A program made the position numbers and the translations under genes. This document shows positions 10,301-47,506 of a stretch of 64,000 nucleotides of DNA, piece by piece. The notes beneath the pieces are model-generated. The model was given only the letters and a program-made list of their open reading frames with translations, made no database searches and was not told the DNA's origin. Position 1 is the first letter of the stretch. Each line of letters starts with the position of its first letter. Origin of the DNA: a virus; IMG/VR virus record IMGVR_UViG_3300006919_000045, positions 8,515 to 72,514 of that record; one strand, written 5' to 3'.

Positions 10301-12970
10301 ATATTCGACATTTGAAACATTAATGTCGCTTCCTCCGCCAAAAGTTTCCGAAGTACAGGTAAAGAAGTGTTGATTGGGATTATTTGCGTGTCTAACTTTA
10401 AATCTTTTTATTCCATCATTAATAAGTTGCTCATCTAAAAATGTTTGCTCTAATAAATGAGTTCCTGAAGTTATGGTTGTTGCAGCTATTGGTAAAATTA
10501 CTGCAGGAGATGCTAGTGCTTTTTCTTTTGTTTCTGCGAGATGAATTTGATTTACACCAATGCCTAATCCTGGCGACTGACCCGCTGCTACAACAAAATA
10601 TTCTTTACCATTTATTAACGGACTAATTGGACTGTTATCAGTATTTATGTATGTAACCTTATCTCCTGTTTCTAATCCTAAGGCACCCATTCCTCCTGTC
10701 ATAATTAAGGAGCTTGCGCCTCGAGCCTCGCTTATAGTTAGATTATCTACCTTAAATCGAAACCTATAATCATACTCTGCATCCATGTCCACAAAGAACC
10801 ACTTATCAATAATAGTGGATCTATACTGTAATCCCGGTCTATAATGGGGCTCAATATCTACCTTGTCAGCTAAATCAAAGTTATCAAAATGCTGGGCACT
10901 ATTAGGATCGTCTACCAGATTATTTCTGTAAGTTCCATCATAATTAAAACAATTTACAAATTTTCCTTTTACAACATAACTTATATCAGGAAGTTGTGCA
11001 TCTGTGTCGCTAACTTTATCTTCAAGTACTACATAGGCAGTATCCAGCAATCTATGAGACTGTCCCCAGTATGTTCCCGGATCTAGCCCCAGTTTTATAT
11101 ATTGTTGTTGCCCTAAAAACAGAGGAGATCCGCTACCTTCTCCGGCAGCCTTATTCATTAAAATTTTATTTGCTTCTTGGTCATCTTTTCCGGAATGAAA
11201 CGTTAATTTCAAATTTTTAGCTTGGGGCAAAGGTCCTAAGCTTTTTTCATGTAAAACTCCTCTTTGATCTTGTTTTTGTGAGAAATACCCCCCTATTTGA
11301 TTTCCACTCGAATCAAACACAGCTGGGTCCGCTGGATTTATTGTACTTCCATCAGGTAAAACCATTGTGACCTGTATACCCAGACCTGAGGGATCTGCTC
11401 CACCACTTATTATAAAAGTACCGTACTGTGTATGCGATATTTGGCCTGCCGCTTGTGAAGAAATTATATTAAAAAAGTCCCCTCCTGCTACATCTCCTTT
11501 TTCCATCGAACCGAAACAAGCAACTCCTTTTACATTGTCATCGTTTGAAACCGTCCCAGGATCGTCCATTCTCCGTACACTTCTATCTGCTTCATCTTTA
11601 CAAACTAGGCTTTCATCATCTACAAATACATCAAATAATCCTGAAATAGGTCCTTCACATAGAACATTTGCAGAATACATAGTTGTAAATCCACCGTCAA
11701 ATTGAGCTGTACTTGAACCCGTCTGGTTTGGAGTAACATCGGGAGTAATTATTATATCTGCGAATGCAGGAAAAGAGTCAATTTTTTGTACCCCATAGAC
11801 AACGGGAATATGCTTCGCTTCTAGGTTAAGTCTTAAATCAAGTTGTCTTTCAACTTCAAAATATTCTGTTGAGTATTTTCTACCCCCCATCATACCTGCA
11901 AGGCCGCCTCTTCTACGAGATTTCAATCTAGAGTCAGTACCTGTGTATTTTGCTAAAACATTTAGTGATTTATCAGCATGCTCGAATCCAAAATCACTAG
12001 CATATTGAGGTTTTAAAGCTGTATTTTCTAAAGAGTATCCTGCTGAGTCTAATCCTCTATGAAATTCATCCGAAGTTAATCGTCCTTGTACTCTTACAAA
12101 GTCCCCCCAATGGCTAGTTAAAGACCAAGTAATCGTAGGCTGTCCTGAAATTTTTTCATTGAGAGTACCTTGAGCAATAACCCCTTTAAAATAAAGAAAA
12201 GGACTCCCAATTATAACTCCAGTATCGGGATGTGCAAAAACTCTATAAATTTCTACGCTTCTATTCACATAGCTTTCATAGCTTAAAGAGCCTATGTTTT
12301 TTGCGGTAAGAGTAGTTACTTCCGGATTAACATAATCTATGTTACATTCCAGTGGAGTAGTAAATGCTACAATTCCTTCTTTTTCTAAACTTGTAACATG
12401 AATTGATTTTCCATCATTGCTAATTCTATCAATTTGGACTGTAAGTACAGTTGGTGCTGCTCCCGTAAAATTTGTATTTTTAGGGAATGCAAGTGGATTT
12501 CCGATAAAATCTAGACTTGTTCGAGTTAGGCTTATAGTATCTCCTACATAAAAGCCTGCCGAAAAAAGATCAAAGTCTAAAGTAAGTAATCCTGCAGCGC
12601 CATTTCCATTTCCGTTAGCTGCGGGCAAAGTACTAGGAATATTTGTCGCTATTTCAGCTTGTGCAACAGCAGTTGCTCCTAGTTTAACGGCAGAAAGAGT
12701 TAAGCTCATTTTAGTGGCTCTTGCTTCTATTGCCTCTTGCACTTTTCCTATTTTTACAATTCCGCCTGCCTTATAACCATTGGTAGAGCCATCTCCATCT
12801 TCATCAAAGTCTACATCATAAGGAGCATCCGTAAGATAAGTAAAATCAGTCCTTCGAGTAGCTTTTTGCAGACTTGAAGGTTTTTCAAATTTTACCAAAT
12901 GATAGGTTAAAAGAGGCACTCGATTCTGTAGCGCCGTTATAATATCATCATGTATATTTCGTAATGCCAT
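4382..12970 (-). CDS. Baseplate hub/tail tip protein fused to central fibre (T5 pb3/pb4-like), 2862 aa
   Basis: Directly after Dit; IPVVYG, NPALQLLDYL and tip-attachment-like motifs, FN3-like segment (LNWNN...YYYWIRY), variable C-terminal fibre region. Confidence 0.8.
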   Translation of the reverse strand: MALRNIHDDIITALQNRVPLLTYHLVKFEKPSSLQKATRRTDFTYLTDAPYDVDFDEDGDGSTNGYKAGGIVKIGKVQEAIEARATKMSLTLSAVKLGATAVAQAEIATNIPSTLPAANGNGNGAAGLLTLDFDLFSAGFYVGDTISLTRTSLDFIGNPLAFPKNTNFTGAAPTVLTVQIDRISNDGKSIHVTSLEKEGIVAFTTPLECNIDYVNPEVTTLTAKNIGSLSYESYVNRSVEIYRVFAHPDTGVIIGSPFLYFKGVIAQGTLNEKISGQPTITWSLTSHWGDFVRVQGRLTSDEFHRGLDSAGYSLENTALKPQYASDFGFEHADKSLNVLAKYTGTDSRLKSRRRGGLAGMMGGRKYSTEYFEVERQLDLRLNLEAKHIPVVYGVQKIDSFPAFADIIITPDVTPNQTGSSTAQFDGGFTTMYSANVLCEGPISGLFDVFVDDESLVCKDEADRSVRRMDDPGTVSNDDNVKGVACFGSMEKGDVAGGDFFNIISSQAAGQISHTQYGTFIISGGADPSGLGIQVTMVLPDGSTINPADPAVFDSSGNQIGGYFSQKQDQRGVLHEKSLGPLPQAKNLKLTFHSGKDDQEANKILMNKAAGEGSGSPLFLGQQQYIKLGLDPGTYWGQSHRLLDTAYVVLEDKVSDTDAQLPDISYVVKGKFVNCFNYDGTYRNNLVDDPNSAQHFDNFDLADKVDIEPHYRPGLQYRSTIIDKWFFVDMDAEYDYRFRFKVDNLTISEARGASSLIMTGGMGALGLETGDKVTYINTDNSPISPLINGKEYFVVAAGQSPGLGIGVNQIHLAETKEKALASPAVILPIAATTITSGTHLLEQTFLDEQLINDGIKRFKVRHANNPNQHFFTCTSETFGGGSDINVSNVEYTSEGYIHQQDPNPLAPFPISIKRTVTRGKQIDHTLFSNEFGIDTGAMVNVFGTNVPEALVTLFKDGITAAQAAAITASLGSGNPLTQADFAAVGNSLPTGDSYVYEIDFSGDPSLNIAAAPALARNLIKAIKGTPSAAQAIDLQIKREHKGGTVVNGVLQDGTTVKVSPFTTVSGWPGLAAAYDVSTDKIILNGFNTQLDELFDAVNTDAPGAGQIDNTDPANPVQQENVDTKIHSSNVTATLQFFQVLVQDSTAPDIDTTHADTLDGTTITFKKDNVEDKTVGLAYPSDTETAVSGTNLNIALRNANLLVLTEHLNTTDHGGSSKYSYGGKSYEGSGVPNKSDRRVSINPALQLLDYLRSTTYGKGLSDDLLNIESFRETARACDQQSRVTVLGSHIRPPTHISVGDVYEYRFPETSSKVFFRGTLEEISDTIQYDVAEYNPTTNTTTTVTRSYKQYTFKDVIGKLGRKWYSYTKYHRGEIVWTVEGKALIVDPGTINDPYPKTISQPTTPLPQATISAGYTGGGATGGVVYLTKVSGASNTNSDTELHLDTEVHSGGTGNPIVKKLVGDGRIASGYDLYDSCDVRYWKYLGWEERTQRHATRHQLNQTLDTSAPLFDNVNQMLTQFNGILRYSNGKYELDLKTKAPTTISSLEQITTDRIIGDIKITDKGLSKTYNSVTTGYIDPQNGFNSKNITYYNSDYKKQDKGISRQGQYKAPGITNYFNNRMNIKQMLDESRSGLTATFTGSPETYVLLPGNIIAITYERFNWASKLFRIQSMSPRDDLLVDFTVIEHNDDAYVLEALPSDLVESIYPEGPGFPVVNPITPTGLTAVGTTDGIRLNWNNVVNFSQETHIVEVWRSSNSSFSTSFPTFGTENDVEKAHKTSSVNTTTDDANLDPDLTYYYWIRYRLPSNKGAAGVKQFSGFHPGRNEPGVSATALDNRSYSVDFFGPQTANYDAAGDLLSGSTFTYTATAFNFLDPRFKFTFDGAAEPSFTAPASGSQKTFNITVPSTIFTGVKDIKVEIQEGAAGGTKIEETLTLVAVQQPQTQKTVKLFKKLNNVNVITGITNPAQQTFANPTNGISGWSTTQQDLTQNLDVIFMVERVFTTDGLSPQDAAWSPPVIVARREDGAVGPDGPGTPRMDLTNENHSVTADRFGNVVNSNFPGANTAVAIYEGATNVTNNWTFATPVASNSGLGFSWNGTTKILQITSMSAALTEATVTISASYLGTTLTKTFTITKINAGASGAEGESVNIIFGRFSAANPPPGTPANSASPNNSIGWYDNPPADQGDPLYASRGTKASGATNFVWSTPYRVDGDSVAEVYVYSNVITGNNIPTPPTSSTYNFRTSTLTINDASWNKDPPSLVNDGDQIYVAVGLATGTPRGTPTVTFGAAARYAVKTDGDDAVVYSLNIVPSVIKKTIPATGSATFDFTTLNVSTIKTAGTTVTQSPLPANEVIIKAYLNSATSAHATSSNGNMTLTSSANYGSASSIKFELIKNSVVIDTETVPILEQEQGASGPRTIQGYLYYRKTGPNHAIAPSAPNGNTYTFSTGIVSATFPVSPPDINTGTTPLDNVWQNSPQTTNAAALETVWTVRYYGTESSSGATSIGVSYSTVVKHTNFTGVVTFSSGTQLTDGSVTIDPLTANEVNGTSGVTQTIIDGGNISAGSIRAGNFSGDVTETYTLSFGDQQAGIAGNFTQASTSIFHFTVPAPKDNGVTLNGVSANVARSLFGNMHVVLESSSQYIIRAYTEIFLKSGTVSGAASGTMYRQNFNGYTFVSNTPVSPFAGSALKYLEINGDKMDELNIGGLLYKHGGTGGYSPIVGLEYYPTGALGSNSSERTRVYFYSNNSLSSNNRANLKGTFSPSYMIWENWPSIYNTSLSGTPSIAQVSMRARIGGIYKASGPGVCVMPINFRLPKRVHTSPVELTAKTTIVHHTTNSVHTSTNAAGGSSISLAVRFVGGTFGYSV

Positions 12971-35268: not shown

Positions 35269-35471
35269 TACATTACCTGCGCTACTATTAATCCTAGTAA
35301 AAACATTATGATTATACCAGAGGCTCCAATAATTCTACTTTCCATTCGCTGTAGCGTACTCTCTACGTCTTCGATGCGAGCAAAGATAGTTTTCCATCTT
35401 TCTTCACATTGAATTGCGTGTACTTGGAGCTCATTCTCAATATGGTTAACTTGCTTTTCTAATTCATTCAT
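35268..35471 (-). CDS. Coiled-coil + C-terminal TM protein (XhlA-like holin candidate)
   Basis: HAIQCEERW coiled coil then one TM helix. Confidence 0.5.
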   Translation of the reverse strand: MNELEKQVNHIENELQVHAIQCEERWKTIFARIEDVESTLQRMESRIIGASGIIIMFLLGLIVAQVM

Positions 35472-40476: not shown

Positions 40477-40579
40477 GAGCGGGGGCGCTGATAGCTGGCG
40501 CATACCTTGTTTATTCCGTCGTCACTGATCTGGCGATCTGGGGCGGCGCGGTTTACTATTATTTCAATGGGGGCTTTTG

Positions 40580-41179
40580 ATGAAAGCACTACAAGCGAAA
40601 CTCAACCGGCTCGCGGAGAATCTCTCCGCTCCGGTGGCGGTAATTTTAGAGGGGCGTGATACTGCTGGCAAATCCTCGACTATTCGGGAATTGACTCACT
40701 ACCTACCGCCCGACCTTTACAGCGTTTGCCTATCGCACAAACCTAGCAAACGCGCAATGGCGGCATGGCTACCCTACTGGGAAACCAAACTACCAACGCA
40801 ACCGCGCATCGTGTTTTTTGATCGAAGCTGGTACAGCCGCGCGATGGTTCAACATCTCAACGGATGGTGTACGCCGCGACAATACAACAATTTTATGCGG
40901 CGTCATAAAAACTGGGAAGCTAATCAGCCGGTGCGCTTGATTAAATTTTGGCTTTCGATTTCGGAACAGGAACAGCAACGCCGAATAATTCAACGCAAGC
41001 ATTCACCGCTCACCTACTGGAAATTTTCGGAGAATGATGAAAACGCACTTTCGCATTATGACCGCATGAGCATTTTAAAAGAGCGCGTTATTGATTCGGA
41101 ATGGCACACAATTAATTTCGAAAATAAATCAAAAGGAATTAAAAAATTGCTTGACAAATTATGCGGCGAGCTGGCATAA
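40580..41179 (+). CDS. ppk2: Polyphosphate kinase 2 family protein
   Basis: EGRDTAGKSSTI (Walker A), FDRSWYSR, IKFWLSIS...Q..R, WK.S..D motifs. Confidence 0.9.
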   Translation: MKALQAKLNRLAENLSAPVAVILEGRDTAGKSSTIRELTHYLPPDLYSVCLSHKPSKRAMAAWLPYWETKLPTQPRIVFFDRSWYSRAMVQHLNGWCTPRQYNNFMRRHKNWEANQPVRLIKFWLSISEQEQQRRIIQRKHSPLTYWKFSENDENALSHYDRMSILKERVIDSEWHTINFENKSKGIKKLLDKLCGELA

Positions 41180-44020: not shown

Positions 44021-44197
44021 AGAAAGTGCAGAAGCAATAGTATTTTGTATAAGTAGCTTTTGTACTCATGAAGCTGACCTTAAAAAATTCGAACCTAAAC
44101 TTCACATGAACAGTGATGGGTTAGTCTTGGAATATAATGATAAGAGTACAGGACACAAAATGTTTGAAAAAATTTCTGGGCTGAAGAAAAATAATTC

Positions 44198-44227
44198 TTG
44201 ACTTTTAGTTCAAAAACGGAGTATAAT
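44198..44227 (+). promoter_or_regulatory. sigma70 promoter of non-coding unit
   Basis: TTGACT-18-TATAAT with upstream A tract. Confidence 0.75.
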
Positions 44228-44233
44228 ATCTTC

Positions 44234-44915
44234 TTAAATGGGGGAAGTCAGGGACGCACAGTACGCCACCGCACTTGCGATAAGACAGTAAAGATCCCGG
44301 TAAAAGTTAAGCCTATCCGGAGCCCCGACCTAATTTGTTCCGCCTTCGTTGACCCTGCCGTGTACAGGTTGAAAGGCATCGTCCGTGGGACAAAAGTGCT
44401 AATGCGGGATGGCAAAGCACTATAAAAAGTACCATCTTAGTTTAGTGCCACTTAGCGCACTTTTCCCTGTTCGAGGTACTATATCGAGCCCCCATGTGTA
44501 CGGGCGGAGGTGCACGACCAGTTATGGCTTTGACACGTTTTCGGATTCTGGTTTAGCAAAAACGAAAAAGAGGTAGGTTGCATCTGCAGTGCTAACCTAG
44601 ATACGTGATAGGAGGTAGGTGCGTATCACTACAACTATAGGAGGAAGTCCTTTTTATTATTGGTCTATTATTGCAAAGAGGCGTCGAAACCCTCGATCAT
44701 AACGAAAGGCACTATATAGCCTAGTGGCAGTTCGCGGCTTTAAACCTAACTGCGGGTTTATCTACTCAGACCCGCTAACGCTAAGGGAGTAGGCAACTGA
44801 CGAGTTGGACAATACGTAGATTTACTCAGTAGCTGCTTGGGAGTCATGCCCCAATGTAGACCTAACAAACGGTAATCGAAGGAATCCCTGCATAGAAATA
44901 TGTGGGGATTTTTTT
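44234..44915 (+). ncRNA. Putative large structured ncRNA (~680 nt)
   Basis: Own promoter and terminator, no credible ORF, more than ten hairpins and nested long-range helices. Confidence 0.7.
44883..44915 (+). terminator. Intrinsic terminator
   Basis: AATCCCTGCATA-GAAA-TATGTGGGGATT then T run. Confidence 0.85.
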
Positions 44916-44935
44916 ATGTGTACAAAAAATTTTCC

Positions 44936-44964
44936 TTGACATTTTTCTTCAGAACCTGTATAAT
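44936..44964 (+). promoter_or_regulatory. sigma70 early promoter
   Basis: TTGACA-17-TATAAT. Confidence 0.85.
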
Positions 44965-44987
44965 ATGGATTCTATGGGAGAAACTAC

Positions 44988-45305
44988 ATGGCAAAAATAC
45001 TAGAATTTCCAGACAATCGTTCGTTGGAAAGGCAGTTAAAGATACTTACTGATGAACTTGTTGAACTACACGAGACGATGGGTAAGTTGTACGATAGTCA
45101 AGCGGCCTTAGACGGGTTGATCCTGGAAAAAGAAGAAGCGTACTCTAATGTACTAAACAAATACTCGCACGCTATTGGAGCTGAGAACATTGCTATCTCG
45201 CTACTACAGTTTGCGACCGACCATATTCAAGTGGACTTAGAAACAGGAGATATAAGATATGTCCCGCCAAAAGAGGAAGAGGAGCCTGATCCGGAAGTGC
45301 CGTAA
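44988..45305 (+). CDS. Acidic coiled-coil hypothetical protein
   Basis: GGGAG RBS behind promoter; MAKILEFP start. Confidence 0.7.
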   Translation: MAKILEFPDNRSLERQLKILTDELVELHETMGKLYDSQAALDGLILEKEEAYSNVLNKYSHAIGAENIAISLLQFATDHIQVDLETGDIRYVPPKEEEEPDPEVP

Positions 45306-45480
45306 GTGCGGTAAGGCTTTTAAAGCTGAAATCGACTCCGTGCACTATTGCTCCGTAAATTGTATATCGGCTTCTCACAACCCCGTTGCTGCTTTTAATC
45401 ACAATCGCAGCGGGGTCCACAAGCCGAAGAAGGGCAAGGGAAGCTATACAAGAAAAACAAGAAGGAAGAGTTATGAGTAA
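45259..45480 (+). CDS. Zn-finger protein with ArfA-like C-terminal motif
   Basis: CRKC...YCSVNC plus KKGKGSYTRK; AGGAG RBS. Confidence 0.5.
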   Translation: MSRQKRKRSLIRKCRKCGKAFKAEIDSVHYCSVNCISASHNPVAAFNHNRSGVHKPKKGKGSYTRKTRRKSYE

Positions 45481-45796
45481 TTATTCGGAGAACGAAACGA
45501 CTTATATGGTGCAACTGTACCAGGAAACCCCGTGCATGGCTACGGTGGATTTGCTCGTGGAACAATTAAAAAGAAGTAAGAAATCGATTATAGGAAAGCT
45601 ATCACGAGAAGGTGTATACCGAAGGGAGGTGTATGTATCGAAAACTGGAGAGAAACCTATTACAAAAGTGGAAATCGTTTCTCATATTGCTGAAGGTTTG
45701 GGAGTTGAGGTTTCAGATCTGGCTGGTCTTGAGAAAGCTCCCAAAAACGTCCTTCGAATCCTATCAAAAGCTGCAGCGGGGTCAGCAATCTCCTAA
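45473..45796 (+). CDS. T5 A2-like DNA-binding protein
   Basis: NYS...TVDLLVEQLKRSKKSIIGKLSREGVY...SKTGEKPITK; clear paralog of 42741 ORF. Confidence 0.7.
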   Translation: MSNYSENETTYMVQLYQETPCMATVDLLVEQLKRSKKSIIGKLSREGVYRREVYVSKTGEKPITKVEIVSHIAEGLGVEVSDLAGLEKAPKNVLRILSKAAAGSAIS

Positions 45797-46004
45797 TGAC
45801 TAGGGGACAATTCTCGTATATTAGTAGGCTAGCGGAATAAATAAGGGAAAATTTACGAACGAATTGGCGCAAATTTTGAACAGTTGTTCGCAAATTTAAA
45901 AAAGATTTTTACTTAAAGTATTCGTTTGGGTCGTATGACCCGTATTATTCTTATTTAATTATCAGGGTCATAGAGATTGGTACAATTCACACTTTGCTTT
46001 TACG

Positions 46005-46176
46005 AATGTAGTAGCGGGTTAGTTGCTGACTTAGCATATCTTGTAGACACCCCGTGTATATACCCTGCTCCCGCTAAGGCTCTGCAGGGTATTTATGCAC
46101 GAAATAGCTACATTATGCTTACGTCAGCATGTAGTTAGTGAGAATCAGTAGACAGACCTTATTGTCTATCAATTTA
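46005..46176 (-). ncRNA. Putative rod-shaped ncRNA (3' end uncertain)
   Basis: 106-nt imperfect hairpin 46024-46129 whose G-U pairs work on the minus strand; upstream minus-strand promoter. Confidence 0.55.
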
Positions 46177-46182
46177 TGATAT

Positions 46183-46211
46183 ATTTTACCACACTTTTTG
46201 GCATATAGCAA
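46183..46211 (-). promoter_or_regulatory. sigma70 promoter with extended -10
   Basis: TTGCTA-17-TAAAAT with TG extension. Confidence 0.6.
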
Positions 46212-46407
46212 ATACTATTTTTGCCCTGGTCCTGGATTACAGTATCTGAGCAGTGTGAAGTTAACAAAAAAATATTATTTTGGAGGGTTAGGTGGAAGAC
46301 TATTTGTGGGTAGTAATTGGTTGTATGATTTTAGCAACAGTAAGTAAAGGATGTATTCCTGAAGGTATTATGTAACATCACAGCAGTAAGAGCATTCGCA
46401 TAAAACT

Positions 46408-46432
46408 AAAGGGGCTTCAAGGCCCCTTTTTT
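46408..46432. terminator. Bidirectional intrinsic terminator
   Basis: AAAGGGGC-TTCAAG-GCCCCTTTTTT. Confidence 0.75.
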
Positions 46433-46611
46433 ATATGACGTACAAATGGAGGGCATTTCGCAAGTATAGGAATATAGAAAGTGTAGGTAGTGCTATCCCG
46501 AGTATCATGATAATTTTTATACACGCAAACTCCAGTGGAGACAACTGAATTTCGATGGTTGTAGATTCCCGTTGCTCCTTCGAGAACGAGGTAAAGCCAA
46601 AGAACTTCCAA
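46417..46611 (-). CDS. Hypothetical protein
   Basis: TTG start behind MazG-like gene; weak support. Confidence 0.35.
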   Translation of the reverse strand: MEVLWLYLVLEGATGIYNHRNSVVSTGVCVYKNYHDTRDSTTYTFYIPILAKCPPFVRHIKKGP

Positions 46612-46618
46612 AGGTCTC

Positions 46619-47002
46619 TCACTGGTTTAGAATACTCTCTAAATCTGGGGCGAAAAAGCCCGGGCCTTTCATTACTTTACCGTTGTCTGCTTTGATTGGT
46701 GTTCCATCATCTCCTAACTTACTCATATTAGAAGCATGTACCTCAGTAAAACACTCATCAAGGTCAATACCAAATGTATGACCAGCACCGTATACAACAT
46801 AGAGTATGTCGGTGAGAGCATCGGCGATTTCGACCATATCTTTATTTGCAATCGCTTCAACCAATTCATCTACTTCTTCTTGAATTAAATCTACTCGTAG
46901 TTCACGAGTACTAAAGTCGGGCCAGGTTGGTTGAGTCTCGACCGATTGACCGAAAGCCTGCATGAAATCTCCCACAAGTTCAAAATTTGTTCCTTCTATC
47001 AT
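46619..47002 (-). CDS. MazG-like / PRA-PH-like NTP pyrophosphohydrolase
   Basis: LIQEEVDEL...EIADALTDILYV...EVHASNMSK...GKVMKGP. Confidence 0.85.
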   Translation of the reverse strand: MIEGTNFELVGDFMQAFGQSVETQPTWPDFSTRELRVDLIQEEVDELVEAIANKDMVEIADALTDILYVVYGAGHTFGIDLDECFTEVHASNMSKLGDDGTPIKADNGKVMKGPGFFAPDLESILNQ

Positions 47003-47180
47003 TATCTTTTCTCTTTCGTTTAAATCTTGCGACTGCAGCCTGTTTAGCCAGTCGTCGTTTTTCGCTTCTTGGTACATGATACTCCTTTTGTTTATAATCC
47101 CATAGTGTTTCTGAACATTTTTTCTTGAAAACTCGTAGAGCAGCGTCTACATTGTTGTTACGTACTTTAACTTTTGGCAT
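46980..47180 (-). CDS. rpsU: Ribosomal protein bS21
   Basis: MPKVKVRNNNVDAALRVFKKKC...EYHVPRSEKRR; AGGAG RBS. Confidence 0.85.
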   Translation of the reverse strand: MPKVKVRNNNVDAALRVFKKKCSETLWDYKQKEYHVPRSEKRRLAKQAAVARFKRKRKDNDRRNKF

Positions 47181-47194
47181 GTATCTCCTTTTGC

Positions 47195-47365
47195 CTAAAA
47201 ACTCCAACCTCTTTTACGTAGGTACGCTACTTGTTTGCGTATTGAGTTTTCTGTGCGATGAGGCAATACTTTTTCCTGTAGTTCACCTACAGTCATTCCA
47301 GAGTAGTGCTCTTTCAACAGTACTCTCTCGCGTATCGACCATGGTCGCTTTGAATATTCTCTCAT
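47195..47365 (-). CDS. Small Myb/SANT-like HTH protein
   Basis: RPWS..E...L..HY...LP.RT.NSIR pattern; leaderless start. Confidence 0.55.
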   Translation of the reverse strand: MREYSKRPWSIRERVLLKEHYSGMTVGELQEKVLPHRTENSIRKQVAYLRKRGWSF

Positions 47366-47372
47366 GACATAT

Positions 47373-47468
47373 ATTATATTCGAACTGAGCTTCAAAGTCA
47401 AGTGATATTTTTAAGAAGAGGTCCATAGAAAAATATTTCTTGACAACATTTTCAAAATCGAGTATAAT
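47373..47468. promoter_or_regulatory. Divergent sigma70 promoter pair
   Basis: Minus TTGACT-17-TATAAT (47401-47373) and plus TTGACA-17-TATAAT (47440-47468). Confidence 0.8.
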
Positions 47469-47506
47469 ATATCCAATAGAAAAATAAGCTGAAAAAGGAG
47501 AATCTC

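What the first reader, a model, noticed from the sequence alone, without database searches (positions are those of the whole stretch)
46005..46211. Minus-strand rod RNA whose apical loop matches its own 3' tail
Seen: 46024-46129 folds into one long imperfect helix. On the minus strand, UAUUU pairs with GGGUG through four G-U pairs that would be mismatches on the plus strand. A minus-strand extended -10 promoter (46211-46183) lies just upstream, with a small 5' hairpin (46149-46168) and no ORF. The loop 7-mer UAGCGGG (46076-46070) is exactly complementary to CCCGCUA (46018-46012), 5 nt past the base of the rod. Inference: pairing across a rod this long is sterically unlikely within one molecule, so it may drive head-to-tail oligomers (as phi29 pRNA does) or an alternative fold. 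Other options are a 6S-like RNA polymerase decoy, a dsRNA decoy or an origin primer RNA.
Basis: partly seen in the sequence, partly recalled or inferred. Interest (0 to 1): 0.72.

Follow-up and report, generated by a model that had tools for sequence, protein, structure and literature searches.

The report
Conserved rod RNA in T5-like phage
A phage related to T5 carries a conserved gene for a long hairpin-shaped RNA with no protein product, set behind a strong early promoter; the hairpin is real and conserved, but the loop-to-tail match that drew attention is specific to this phage and is probably chance.

Summary
Window 46024-46129 is a 40-pair rod, with four G-U pairs on the minus strand. 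A minus-strand extended -10 promoter, a small 5' hairpin and no usable ORF lie upstream. The loop 7-mer is exactly complementary to a 7-mer 5 nt past the rod.

The window is a distant T5-like siphovirus from metagenomes. I found 28 distinct versions of the element in IMG/VR. All keep the promoter and a rod at the same place, but the rods fall into five sequence groups. Covariation is strong: 11 of 34 and 17 of 39 pairs changed on both sides, and 0 of 500 shuffles matched. G-U versus A-C counts favour the minus strand overall (54 versus 7), though two of the five groups show no asymmetry.

The promoter aligns with the annotated T5 early promoter P25. The loop-tail complementarity occurs only in the window and a 96%-identical relative, so the oligomer idea is not supported.

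Best reading: a new family of early noncoding RNA whose rod is the selected module. Its function is unknown. It is either a dsRNA or protein-binding module, or a cis-antisense RNA. Transcription was not shown.

T5 itself has an unannotated promoter plus a roughly 150-nt rod at an analogous position.

The parts
46183..46211 (-). T5-type early promoter: -35 TTGCTA (46211-46206), 17-nt spacer, extended -10 TGGTAAAAT (46191-46183). The inferred RNA start is near 46176.
   Evidence: Promoter scan. The core is conserved in all rows of the alignments. blastn matches it to 468 cultured phage records, and in T5 the match lies on the annotated 'putative early promoter T5P25' (alignment A3). The start site is inferred and was not measured.
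46151..46170 (-). Small 5' hairpin (GAUAGAC/GUCUGUC, 7 bp including one U-G).
   Evidence: Fold. Relatives can form a hairpin here, but in differing registers, so its conservation as a structure is not settled. The sequence also overlaps the initial-transcribed block shared with T5 P25.
46130..46146 (-). Conserved single-stranded linker (UCUCACUAACUA at 46143-46132).
   Evidence: Conserved across rod groups A and B and partly in E. It occurs once in the window, plus one 1-mismatch site elsewhere.
46024..46129 (-). The rod: 106 nt, 40 pairs, four G-U pairs, apex capped by GC-CUUA-GC.
   Evidence: Covariation of the homologous rods. Strand asymmetry.
46070..46076 (-). Apical 7-mer UAGCGGG.
   Evidence: Complementary to 46012-46018. 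Not conserved in relatives.
46008..46023 (-). C-rich motif just 3' of the rod (AACCCGCUAC). It contains the 'tail' 7-mer CCCGCUA (46018-46012).
   Evidence: An AAUCCCRC-like motif sits at this place in most groups (alignments). Its partner, if any, was not found.
45985..46007 (-). Short hairpin region (AUUC...GAAU). Its arms change together between groups.
   Evidence: Read by eye from the alignment. Not tested with a counting tool.
45934..45972 (.). Hairpin with conserved loop GAUAAUUAAAUA (45963-45952) and stems that differ between groups.
   Evidence: The strand is undecided: summed over 23 versions this region folds better on the plus strand (-254.7 versus -206.9 kcal/mol).
45845..45891 (-). 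Possible 3' end of the RNA: a 12-bp hairpin (AAAUUUGCGAAC/GUUCGUAAAUUU) followed by a U-rich stretch.
   Evidence: Fold of 46176-45826. It is weak. My terminator scan found a clear minus-strand terminator at the matching place only in L005.
46292..46375 (+). Neighbouring small gene: a 27-aa hydrophobic peptide with GTG start and GGAGGG Shine-Dalgarno. It is followed by the bidirectional terminator 46408-46429.
   Evidence: In 18 of 22 versions a plus-strand ORF with a Shine-Dalgarno motif starts 90-104 nt right of the TGGCA anchor, but it encodes different proteins.

Best explanation
The finding is the 5' half of a gene for an early noncoding RNA of a distant T5-like phage.

Host RNA polymerase starts at a T5-type early promoter (46211-46183) and transcribes leftward. 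The RNA carries a short 5' hairpin, a conserved linker and then the 106-nt rod. It probably runs on for about 340 nt in all, to the end of the intergenic gap.

The rod is the part under selection. Its sequence has been replaced several times in relatives, while its pairing, its position about 45 nt from the start and its G-U pairs on this strand are kept.

I think the rod works as a double-stranded module. It would be bound or cut by a protein that recognises dsRNA, such as an RNase III-class enzyme, another host factor or an immune sensor. I do not think it works through its loop.

Shown: the structure, its covariation and the promoter's likeness to T5 P25. The strand bias is shown in three of the five rod groups. 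Inferred: that the RNA is made, where it ends, and what it does.

My odds:
- A minus-strand RNA with this rod is made and selected: 0.85.
- It acts mainly in trans as a dsRNA or protein-binding module: 0.4 to 0.45.
For: 1. Family. The promoter core recurs in 46 fetched IMG/VR loci plus the window. These collapse to 28 distinct full-length versions, in five rod sequence groups.
2. Covariation.
- Group B (6 sequences): 34 pairs, 11 changed on both sides, 95% of cells paired, 0 of 500 shuffles as high, slid controls 30-49% paired.
- Group C (5 sequences): 39 pairs, 17 changed on both sides, 94.2% paired, 0 of 500 shuffles, slid controls 34-47%.
3. Strand.
- The rod alone is more stable on the minus strand in 26 of 26 automatically delimited rods.
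- On the minus-strand consensus structures, 54 cells are G-U against 7 A-C over 24 sequences.
- In group B there are 12 G-U cells and 1 A-C cell. In group C there are 16 G-U cells and no A-C cell.
4. Promoter.
- The scan finds a minus-strand extended -10 promoter.
- TGN plus TA(A/C)AAT is present in every row of the alignment.
- The core matches 468 cultured phage records, mostly T5-like. In T5 the match lies on the annotated early promoter T5P25, in the same orientation.
- The likeness runs from the A-rich upstream block through -35 and -10 to the first 25 or so transcribed bases.
5. No ORF follows the inferred start.
6. The whole 351-nt candidate RNA folds at -92.9 kcal/mol, z -6.24.
7. Capped apices argue for a structural rod.
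8. Analogy in T5. In the noncoding gap between the first-step-transfer DNA and the convergent early genes, T5 has an unannotated leftward promoter-like site (TTGACA-17-TGnTATCAT), a small hairpin and a roughly 150-nt rod.
- The fold has z -7.29.
- The region is kept at 90% identity or more in 141 records.
- A 6-sequence alignment gives 71 predicted pairs. Three are compensatory, two changed on one side, and three pairs hold one broken cell each.
- There the rod is not opposite any annotated gene.
Against: 1. No transcript was seen. The four RNA runs I could lay were contigs only and gave nothing over 45300-47500.
2. The strand signal is limited to the rod.
- The whole 272-nt stretch shows no preference: minus is more stable in 12 of 28 versions, and the mean difference is 1.6 kcal/mol in favour of plus.
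- The hairpin with the conserved loop folds better on the plus strand.
- Groups A and D show no G-U asymmetry (12 versus 13 and 5 versus 5).
- Two rods (L048, L049) were mis-delimited by my script, and as fragments they favoured plus.
3. No consistent terminator marks a discrete 3' end.
4. The RNA is fully complementary to any rightward read-through transcript. A cis-antisense role therefore cannot be separated from a trans role with these data.
5. G-T pairs are also tolerated in single-stranded DNA, so a DNA hairpin on this strand would leave the same asymmetry.
6. The T5 parallel is positional and architectural. No sequence homology of the rods was shown.
Confidence: 0.45

Rival explanations
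1. Cis-antisense or convergent-transcription control. The leftward RNA meets and pairs with rightward early transcripts that read through from the F1-F0 operon (promoter at 44938-44966) into the genes right of the element. The duplex is cut by RNase III, or the polymerases collide. Either way the downstream rightward genes are uncoupled or shut down.
For: - The element always sits inside a rightward gene string. The F0 protein family lies directly left of it in 20 of 21 loci with at least 1 kb of left flank.
- A plus-strand ORF with a Shine-Dalgarno motif starts 90-104 nt right of the anchor in 18 of 22 versions.
- No consistent plus-strand terminator lies between F0 and the element in 17 loci.
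- A perfect TTGACA-17-TATAAT rightward promoter lies 1.25 kb to the left.
- Long bulged stems are usual in antisense RNAs (established knowledge: CopA, RNA I, OOP).
Against: - Rightward read-through was not shown.
- Strongly conserved unpaired motifs (linker, AAUCCCRC, loop GAUAAUYAAAUA) are not needed for a purely complementary antisense RNA.
- Apical loops are stable caps and not open kissing loops.
- The analogous T5 rod is more than 1.4 kb from the nearest rightward gene and lies behind annotated terminators.
- In 4 of 22 versions the downstream ORF is absent or displaced.
Confidence: 0.3
2. A DNA-level signal and not an RNA. One form is a hairpin in single-stranded minus-strand DNA that serves as a priming or origin signal, as in ssi or Frpo-type signals. 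The other is part of a noncoding border region like the T5 injection-stop region.
For: - Position. The element lies in an 820-bp noncoding gap between rightward small early genes and a convergent leftward operon. The T5 injection-stop region lies the same way, between T5.011-017 and T5.018.
- T5 and BF23 border regions are rich in palindromes. I read section 3.3 of Davison, bioRxiv 10.1101/866236, and passages of PMC10644984.
- G-T wobble in single-stranded DNA would give the same strand asymmetry.
- Group C rods carry TTATGCACA, a consensus DnaA box on the plus strand (sequences).
Against: - A conserved T5-type promoter sits at a fixed distance upstream of the rod in every version. A DNA hairpin does not need one.
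- No consensus DnaA box lies in 45800-46620: 0 of the window's 10 matches.
- No iteron-like repeat array was found.
- Whether a terminal repeat ends here could not be tested.
Confidence: 0.12
3. The structure belongs to the plus-strand transcript, for example as an RNase III processing site or a 3' stabiliser of the rightward operon.
For: - The plus strand also folds well (-62.5 kcal/mol, z -3.5).
- Rightward genes flank the element.
- The left part of the gap folds better on the plus strand.
Against: - On the rods, one-sided changes are G-U on minus and would be A-C mismatches on plus: 54 versus 7 cells.
- Consensus folds are weaker on plus in 4 of 5 groups.
- The rod alone is less stable on plus in 26 of 26 cases.
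Confidence: 0.05
4. The apical loop pairs with the 3' tail of another molecule, building head-to-tail oligomers as phi29 pRNA does, or switching the RNA to another fold.
For: An exact 7-mer complement in the window. In 7 of 1000 tail shuffles a match at least as long arose.
Against: - Present in 2 of 24 versions, which are 96% identical to each other.
- Absent in L056, whose loop and tail both changed without compensation.
- 20 other versions are at chance, and L031 has an 8-mer at a different place.
- Part of the 7-mer is in a cap stem.
- No Rfam pRNA match.
Confidence: 0.03
5. A 6S-like decoy of RNA polymerase.
For: A long rod RNA made early from a strong promoter.
Against: - No large central bubble. 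The internal loops of the rods are a few bases.
- At 87-110 nt the rod is shorter than 6S RNA.
- No Rfam 6S match even at E-value up to 10.
Confidence: 0.03

Closest known systems
Bacteriophage T5 early promoters (annotated 'putative early promoter T5P25', AY587007 45906-45975)
   Same: The upstream A-rich block, -35 TTGCT, -10 and the first 25 or so transcribed bases (CATAAATTGATAnACAA) align at about 78% over 57-59 nt. The orientation is the same.
   Different: In T5 this promoter drives a protein gene (ORF084). Here no ORF follows, and a structured RNA takes its place. The -10 here carries an extended TG.
Unannotated promoter plus rod in T5, between the injection-stop region and T5.018 (NC_005859 about 10690-10880, leftward)
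   Same: - A leftward sigma-70-type promoter with TG extension, then a small hairpin, then a very long imperfect rod.
- It lies in the noncoding gap between rightward (pre-)early genes and convergent leftward genes.
- G-U pairs lie on the leftward strand, and varying pairs mostly keep pairing.
   Different: - No sequence similarity of the rods was shown.
- The T5 rod is longer (about 150 nt) and is followed by a hairpin with a U-rich tail.
- It is not opposite any annotated gene.
- Its relatives are all at least 90% identical, so covariation is thin: 3 compensatory pairs.
- I found no paper describing it. Supplements of the Davison preprint were not open to me and may describe palindromes there.
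phi29 pRNA
   Same: A phage-encoded structured RNA made from an early promoter. In this window alone there is a loop complementary to another part of the molecule.
   Different: - The defining intermolecular loop-loop complementarity covaries in pRNA relatives (recalled). Here it is not conserved.
- No Rfam match.
- The phage is a T5-like siphovirus with a terminase and portal of the usual kind.
RNase III hairpins of T7 early RNA, and long bulged stems of antisense RNAs (lambda OOP, R1 CopA)
   Same: An imperfect double-stranded stem of 31-44 pairs with small bulges, made early by host polymerase. In this window it is also complementary to the other strand's possible transcript.
   Different: - Cleavage or pairing was not tested.
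- The T7 sites lie within mRNAs on the coding strand. This one lies on the noncoding strand.
- The comparison rests on recalled knowledge of those systems.
Small stable RNAs of T-even and T5 phages (T4 RNA C and D; T5 low-molecular-weight RNAs; recalled from 1980s literature and not checked)
   Same: Hairpin-like stable RNAs of about 100-140 nt of unknown function, made early. T5 has a 39-pair rod between early promoter T5P19 and tRNA-Tyr (annotation).
   Different: Those lie in tRNA clusters. This window has no tRNA. No homology was tested.

Membership tests
phi29 pRNA (Rfam RF00044) | Match to the family's covariance model | tested here: not met
   No Rfam match at gathering score in the window. 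None at E-value up to 10 in 45700-46700.
phi29 pRNA (Rfam RF00044) | Intermolecular complementarity of two loops, kept by covariation in relatives | tested here: not met
   The 7-mer is present in 2 of 24 versions, which are 96% identical to each other. It is absent in L056. The rest are at chance.
6S RNA | A long rod with a large central bubble that mimics an open promoter; a match to Rfam 6S models | tested here: not met
   Only small internal loops. No Rfam match.
6S RNA | Binds the sigma-70 holoenzyme and templates product RNA | not testable with these tools
   Needs a binding assay.
T5-type early promoter | Sequence likeness to annotated T5 early promoters, including the upstream and initial-transcribed blocks; -35 and -10 at 17 nt | tested here: met
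   Promoter scan. blastn to 468 records, and the T5 feature 'putative early promoter T5P25'. Alignment A3. Promoter activity itself was not measured.
Structured noncoding RNA (generic criteria) | Base pairs kept through compensatory changes, above shuffled and slid controls | tested here: met
   11 of 34 and 17 of 39 pairs changed on both sides, with 0 of 500 shuffles as high. The sequence sets are small (6 and 5), so relatedness could inflate the shuffle control. The slid controls keep relatedness and are far lower.
Structured noncoding RNA (generic criteria) | A transcript of the stated strand exists | tested here: inconclusive
   Only assembled RNA contigs could be laid. None covers the rod, and that is not evidence of absence.
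Cis-antisense RNA | An overlapping transcript from the opposite strand | tested here: inconclusive
   No consistent plus-strand terminator before the element in 17 loci, and rightward genes lie on both sides. The rightward transcript was not observed.
T5 injection-stop / first-step-transfer border region | A long noncoding region between rightward pre-early genes and convergent early genes | tested here: met
   Window layout compared with the T5 annotation. This is positional likeness only.
T5 injection-stop / first-step-transfer border region | Paired DnaA boxes (TTWTNCACA) in inverted repeats (Davison, section 3.3) | tested here: not met
   0 of the window's 10 consensus boxes lie in 45800-46620.
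T5 injection-stop / first-step-transfer border region | Lies at the inner end of a long terminal repeat | not testable with these tools
   Needs read depth or end mapping.
RNase III substrate | About two turns or more of dsRNA | tested here: met
   31-44 pairs in the rods. Cleavage is not testable here.

The most novel reading that the evidence does not exclude
T5-like phages as a group, T5 included, place a promoter-proximal long-rod noncoding RNA in the noncoding border between the DNA that enters first and the rest of the genome. This RNA would be among the first things made from that border. It would act either as a double-stranded decoy or trigger-blocker against a host RNA-sensing defence, or as part of the switch between pre-early and early expression.
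Probability: 0.15. Interest if true: 0.75.

Novelty: new member of a known kind. Interest (0 to 1): 0.5.

Why it matters
Phage noncoding RNAs with good comparative support are few, and none is described for the T5 group in the four literature searches I ran. This element is a covarying, strand-specific structure behind a promoter of a well-studied type. It recurs in at least 28 versions from freshwater and marine metagenomes.

A look-alike arrangement sits unannotated in T5 itself. The question of what a long early dsRNA rod does for a virulent phage could therefore be taken to a standard laboratory phage and E. coli K-12.

The result also corrects the original headline. The self-complementary loop and tail should not be pursued as a family feature.

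Tried and rejected
- RNA evidence. Runs X15-X18 are Logan contigs only. Laid on 44500-47500, they cover 44500-44857 and faintly 45019-45274, and nothing from 45300 on. There is no verdict on the rod.
- Rfam. No match in the window at gathering score. Only chance-level matches at E-value up to 10 near the rod. No match to the rod in 13 relatives' loci.
- blastn of the whole 821-bp gap against cultured phages found no match. Only the 93-nt core query did.
- Strand choice by folding the whole 272 nt gave no preference. RNAalifold on all groups together gave no structure, because MAFFT cannot align the unrelated rods.
- A conserved small ORF on the plus strand under the loop motif (codons Y-L-I-I): rejected. 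An ORF is present in only a few versions, and the window has a stop there.
- A plus-strand promoter inside the conserved core, including a Bacteroidetes-type -33/-7 reading: no hexamers at usable spacing, and the motif is not repeated in the window. I dropped this idea.
- A plus-strand leader hairpin (46210-46222 with 46268-46280): pairing is not kept consistently in relatives.
- Iterons or an origin: no repeat array.
- DnaA boxes: none in the gap.
- Trans targets inside the window for the conserved linker or loop motifs: none.
- A helix closing the rod, between the linker and the region 3' of it, appears in the window's fold. I could not show it in other groups.
- Many IMG/VR contigs end within about 1.5 kb of the element. 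I did not test this formally and draw nothing from it.
- Earlier notes of this scan: three look-ups, nothing returned.
- Pfam and PHROGs on the flanking small proteins F0 and F1 and the 68-aa protein: no family.

Full report
WHAT THE WINDOW IS. The window is 64 kb of a 72.5-kb IMG/VR virus record, estimated 70% complete.
- PHROGs names a siphovirus-type structural module on the minus strand: terminase, portal, protease-capsid fusion, major tail protein and a 1588-aa tape measure.
- On the plus strand it names a replication module: D5-like regulator, split NAD-dependent ligase, DnaB-like helicase, primase and DNA polymerase.
- The polymerase is 44% identical to those of T5-like Vibrio and Aeromonas phages. 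I take it to be a distant T5-like phage.
- Three of 13 relatives' loci carry a permuted, alphaproteobacterial-type tmRNA. This hints at an alphaproteobacterial host.

THE OBSERVATION.
- The rod 46024-46129 has 40 pairs, four of them G-U on the minus strand.
- The 207-nt stretch folds with z -4.29 on minus and z -3.50 on plus.
- The small hairpin is at 46151-46170, two bases from the stated place.
- The 7-mers at 46070-46076 and 46012-46018 are exact complements.

SURROUNDINGS.
- Rightward genes end at 45796.
- An 820-bp gap follows.
- A leftward operon converges on a bidirectional terminator at 46408-46429. It holds a 68-aa protein, an S21-like ribosomal protein and a MazG-like pyrophosphohydrolase.
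- Between the promoter core and that terminator lies a 27-aa hydrophobic ORF with a strong Shine-Dalgarno motif.

RELATIVES.
- Using the MazG-like protein I fetched 24 related loci. Two pattern scans with the promoter core brought in more.
- The core occurs in 46 loci plus the window, which collapse to 28 distinct full-length versions.
- By blastn, only three loci at 96% identity share the window's rod sequence. The others share only 46132-46299.
- Even so, each has a long hairpin at the same place. The rods fall into five groups of unrelated or barely related sequence, 87-110 nt long with 31-44 pairs.

COVARIATION.
- Group B (6 sequences): 34 pairs, 11 changed on both sides, 95% of cells paired, against 87.4% in shuffles. 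In 0 of 500 shuffles was the observed value reached on four of the five measures (7 of 500 on further standard pair types). Partners slid by 1-3 columns give 30-49% paired.
- Group C (5 sequences): 39 pairs, 17 changed on both sides, 94.2% paired, 0 of 500 shuffles on all five measures, slid controls 34-47%.
- My own script gave 6, 5 and 3 compensatory pairs for groups A, D and E.
- The sets are small and related, so the shuffle control is generous. The slid control, which keeps relatedness, is decisive enough.

STRAND.
- The rod alone is more stable on the minus strand in 26 of 26 rods that my script delimited. Two others (L048, L049) were cut wrongly and, as fragments, favoured plus.
- On the minus-strand consensus structures there are 54 G-U cells and 7 A-C cells over 24 sequences. 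Folding the plus strand gives 27 and 18.
- The asymmetry comes from groups B, C and E. Groups A and D show none.
- It does not extend beyond the rod. The whole 272 nt has no preference, and the hairpin with the conserved loop GAUAAUYAAAUA folds better on plus.
- So I treat the rod as a minus-strand element and leave the strand of the left part of the gap open.

THE PROMOTER.
- The core is far more conserved than a bare sigma-70 site would need to be.
- A 93-nt query over it matches 468 cultured phage records, mostly T5-like Salmonella and Escherichia phages, at 75-80% over 57-66 nt.
- In T5 the match falls on the annotated early promoter T5P25, in the same orientation as our minus-strand promoter.
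- The alignment shows shared upstream A-rich, -35, -10 and initial-transcribed blocks.
- In T5 that promoter leads into a protein gene. Here it leads into the hairpin, linker and rod, with no ORF.
- This is the main reason to read the element as an RNA and not as a DNA hairpin.

THE LOOP-TAIL MATCH.
- I tested 24 versions, leaving out four whose rods repeat another's (L006, L012, L040 and L044). For each I took the longest Watson-Crick complement between the 29-nt apex and the 40 nt past the rod.
- A stretch of 7 or more occurs in the window, in its 96%-identical relative L002, and in L031, where an 8-mer lies at a different place.
- L056 has a rod alignable with the window's. Both its loop and its tail changed, and it has no complement of 4 nt or more.
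- The other 20 have 4-6-mers that 106-999 of 1000 shuffles reach.
- The tail does overlap a conserved C-rich motif (AAUCCCRC) found just 3' of the rod in most groups. That motif may matter, but not through the apex.
- Apices are mostly G-C clamps closed by tri- or tetraloops.

EXTENT AND NEIGHBOURS.
- Conservation runs through the whole gap. In order it covers the linker, the rod, the C-rich motif, a short hairpin, a hairpin with a conserved loop and a block with a U-run.
- The 351-nt candidate RNA folds with z -6.24.
- No consistent terminator was found on either strand, so the 3' end is unknown.
- The element always follows the rightward genes F1 and F0 (20 of 21 loci with enough flank).
- In 18 of 22 versions it is followed, at 90-104 nt from the anchor, by a rightward ORF of varying identity.
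- A leftward RNA would therefore be antisense to any rightward read-through transcript.

WHAT IT DOES. This part is inference.
- I favour a trans-acting double-stranded module bound or cut by a dsRNA-recognising protein. The reasons are that the rod's pairing, and not its sequence, is kept, that the apex is capped, and that the T5 look-alike is not opposite any gene.
- A cis-antisense role is nearly as likely.
- A single-stranded-DNA signal cannot be excluded.
- 6S-like and pRNA-like readings fail their defining features.

THE T5 PARALLEL.
- In T5, rightward pre-early genes T5.011-017 are followed by the noncoding injection-stop region and then by convergent leftward early genes.
- In the unannotated 500 bp before T5.018 there is a leftward TTGACA-17-TGnTATCAT site.
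- It is followed by a small hairpin and a roughly 150-nt rod, with z -7.29.
- The region is kept at 90% identity or more in 141 records.
- In six sequences, the pairs of the rod that vary keep pairing, apart from one G-G cell in T5.
- Neither T5 record annotates it.
- This is an analogy of position and architecture, not shown homology.
- The preprint section and the passages I read on the T5 and BF23 border regions speak of repeats, palindromes and DnaA boxes, not of an RNA.

SIDE FINDING.
- The only part of 44500-47500 present in RNA libraries is 44500-44857, at word depth up to 255.
- It belongs to a 430-680-nt unit, 44239-44915 in the window. The unit has its own conserved TTGACT-17-TATAAT promoter and a conserved terminator. 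Its insertions and deletions are not multiples of three, and no ORF is conserved across it.
- The consensus fold has 95 pairs, 17 of them compensatory. There is no Rfam match.
- It looks like a second, highly expressed noncoding RNA and deserves its own follow-up.

Noticed in passing
window 44197-44917 (+): A candidate large noncoding RNA.
- A conserved TTGACT-17-TATAAT promoter (44197-44225).
- A 430-680-nt body (44239-44915 in the window) with conserved blocks and indels that are not multiples of three.
- A conserved terminator (about 44885-44917).
- No ORF conserved across relatives.
- 95 consensus pairs, 17 of them compensatory, in 9 sequences.
- Metatranscriptome contigs from three freshwater studies cover 44500-44857 at word depth up to 255, while the rest of 44500-47500 is nearly bare.
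- No Rfam match.
- Two hairpin loops carry GGAGG.
   Followed up: partly
window 44753-44883: The window's copy of that RNA has an extra insertion of about 130 nt that is absent from all eight relatives aligned. RNA contigs cover part of it.
   Followed up: no
L057 (T5, NC_005859) 10690-10880, minus strand: An unannotated leftward promoter-like site, a small hairpin and a roughly 150-nt rod. They lie between the injection-stop region and T5.018. The fold has z -7.29, and the region is conserved in 141 T5-like records.
   Followed up: partly
L059 (T5, AY587007) record 35341-35460, minus strand: A 39-pair rod of about 107 nt lies between the annotated early promoter T5P19 and tRNA-Tyr. It may be one of the small stable T5 RNAs reported in the 1980s (recalled, not checked).
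   Followed up: no
L013 3014-3435, L028 4516-4934, L049 7011-7205 and 6653-6723: Relatives of this phage encode a permuted, alphaproteobacterial-type tmRNA. L049 also has a tRNA. The window has neither. This hints at an alphaproteobacterial host.
   Followed up: no
window 46292-46375 (+) and the same place in relatives: The first gene right of the element is a hot spot of replacement. It encodes 22-27-aa hydrophobic peptides, 46-51-aa single-helix peptides or unrelated proteins. All start 90-104 nt from the anchor behind a good Shine-Dalgarno motif.
   Followed up: partly
window 46619-47401 (-): A leftward operon holds a 68-aa protein, a ribosomal protein S21 homologue (Pfam 39.7 bits) and a MazG-like pyrophosphohydrolase. 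A perfect TTGACA-17-TATAAT rightward promoter lies at 47440-47468.
   Followed up: no
window 40577-41179 (+): A PPK2-family kinase (Pfam 134.5 bits) lies among the small rightward early genes.
   Followed up: no
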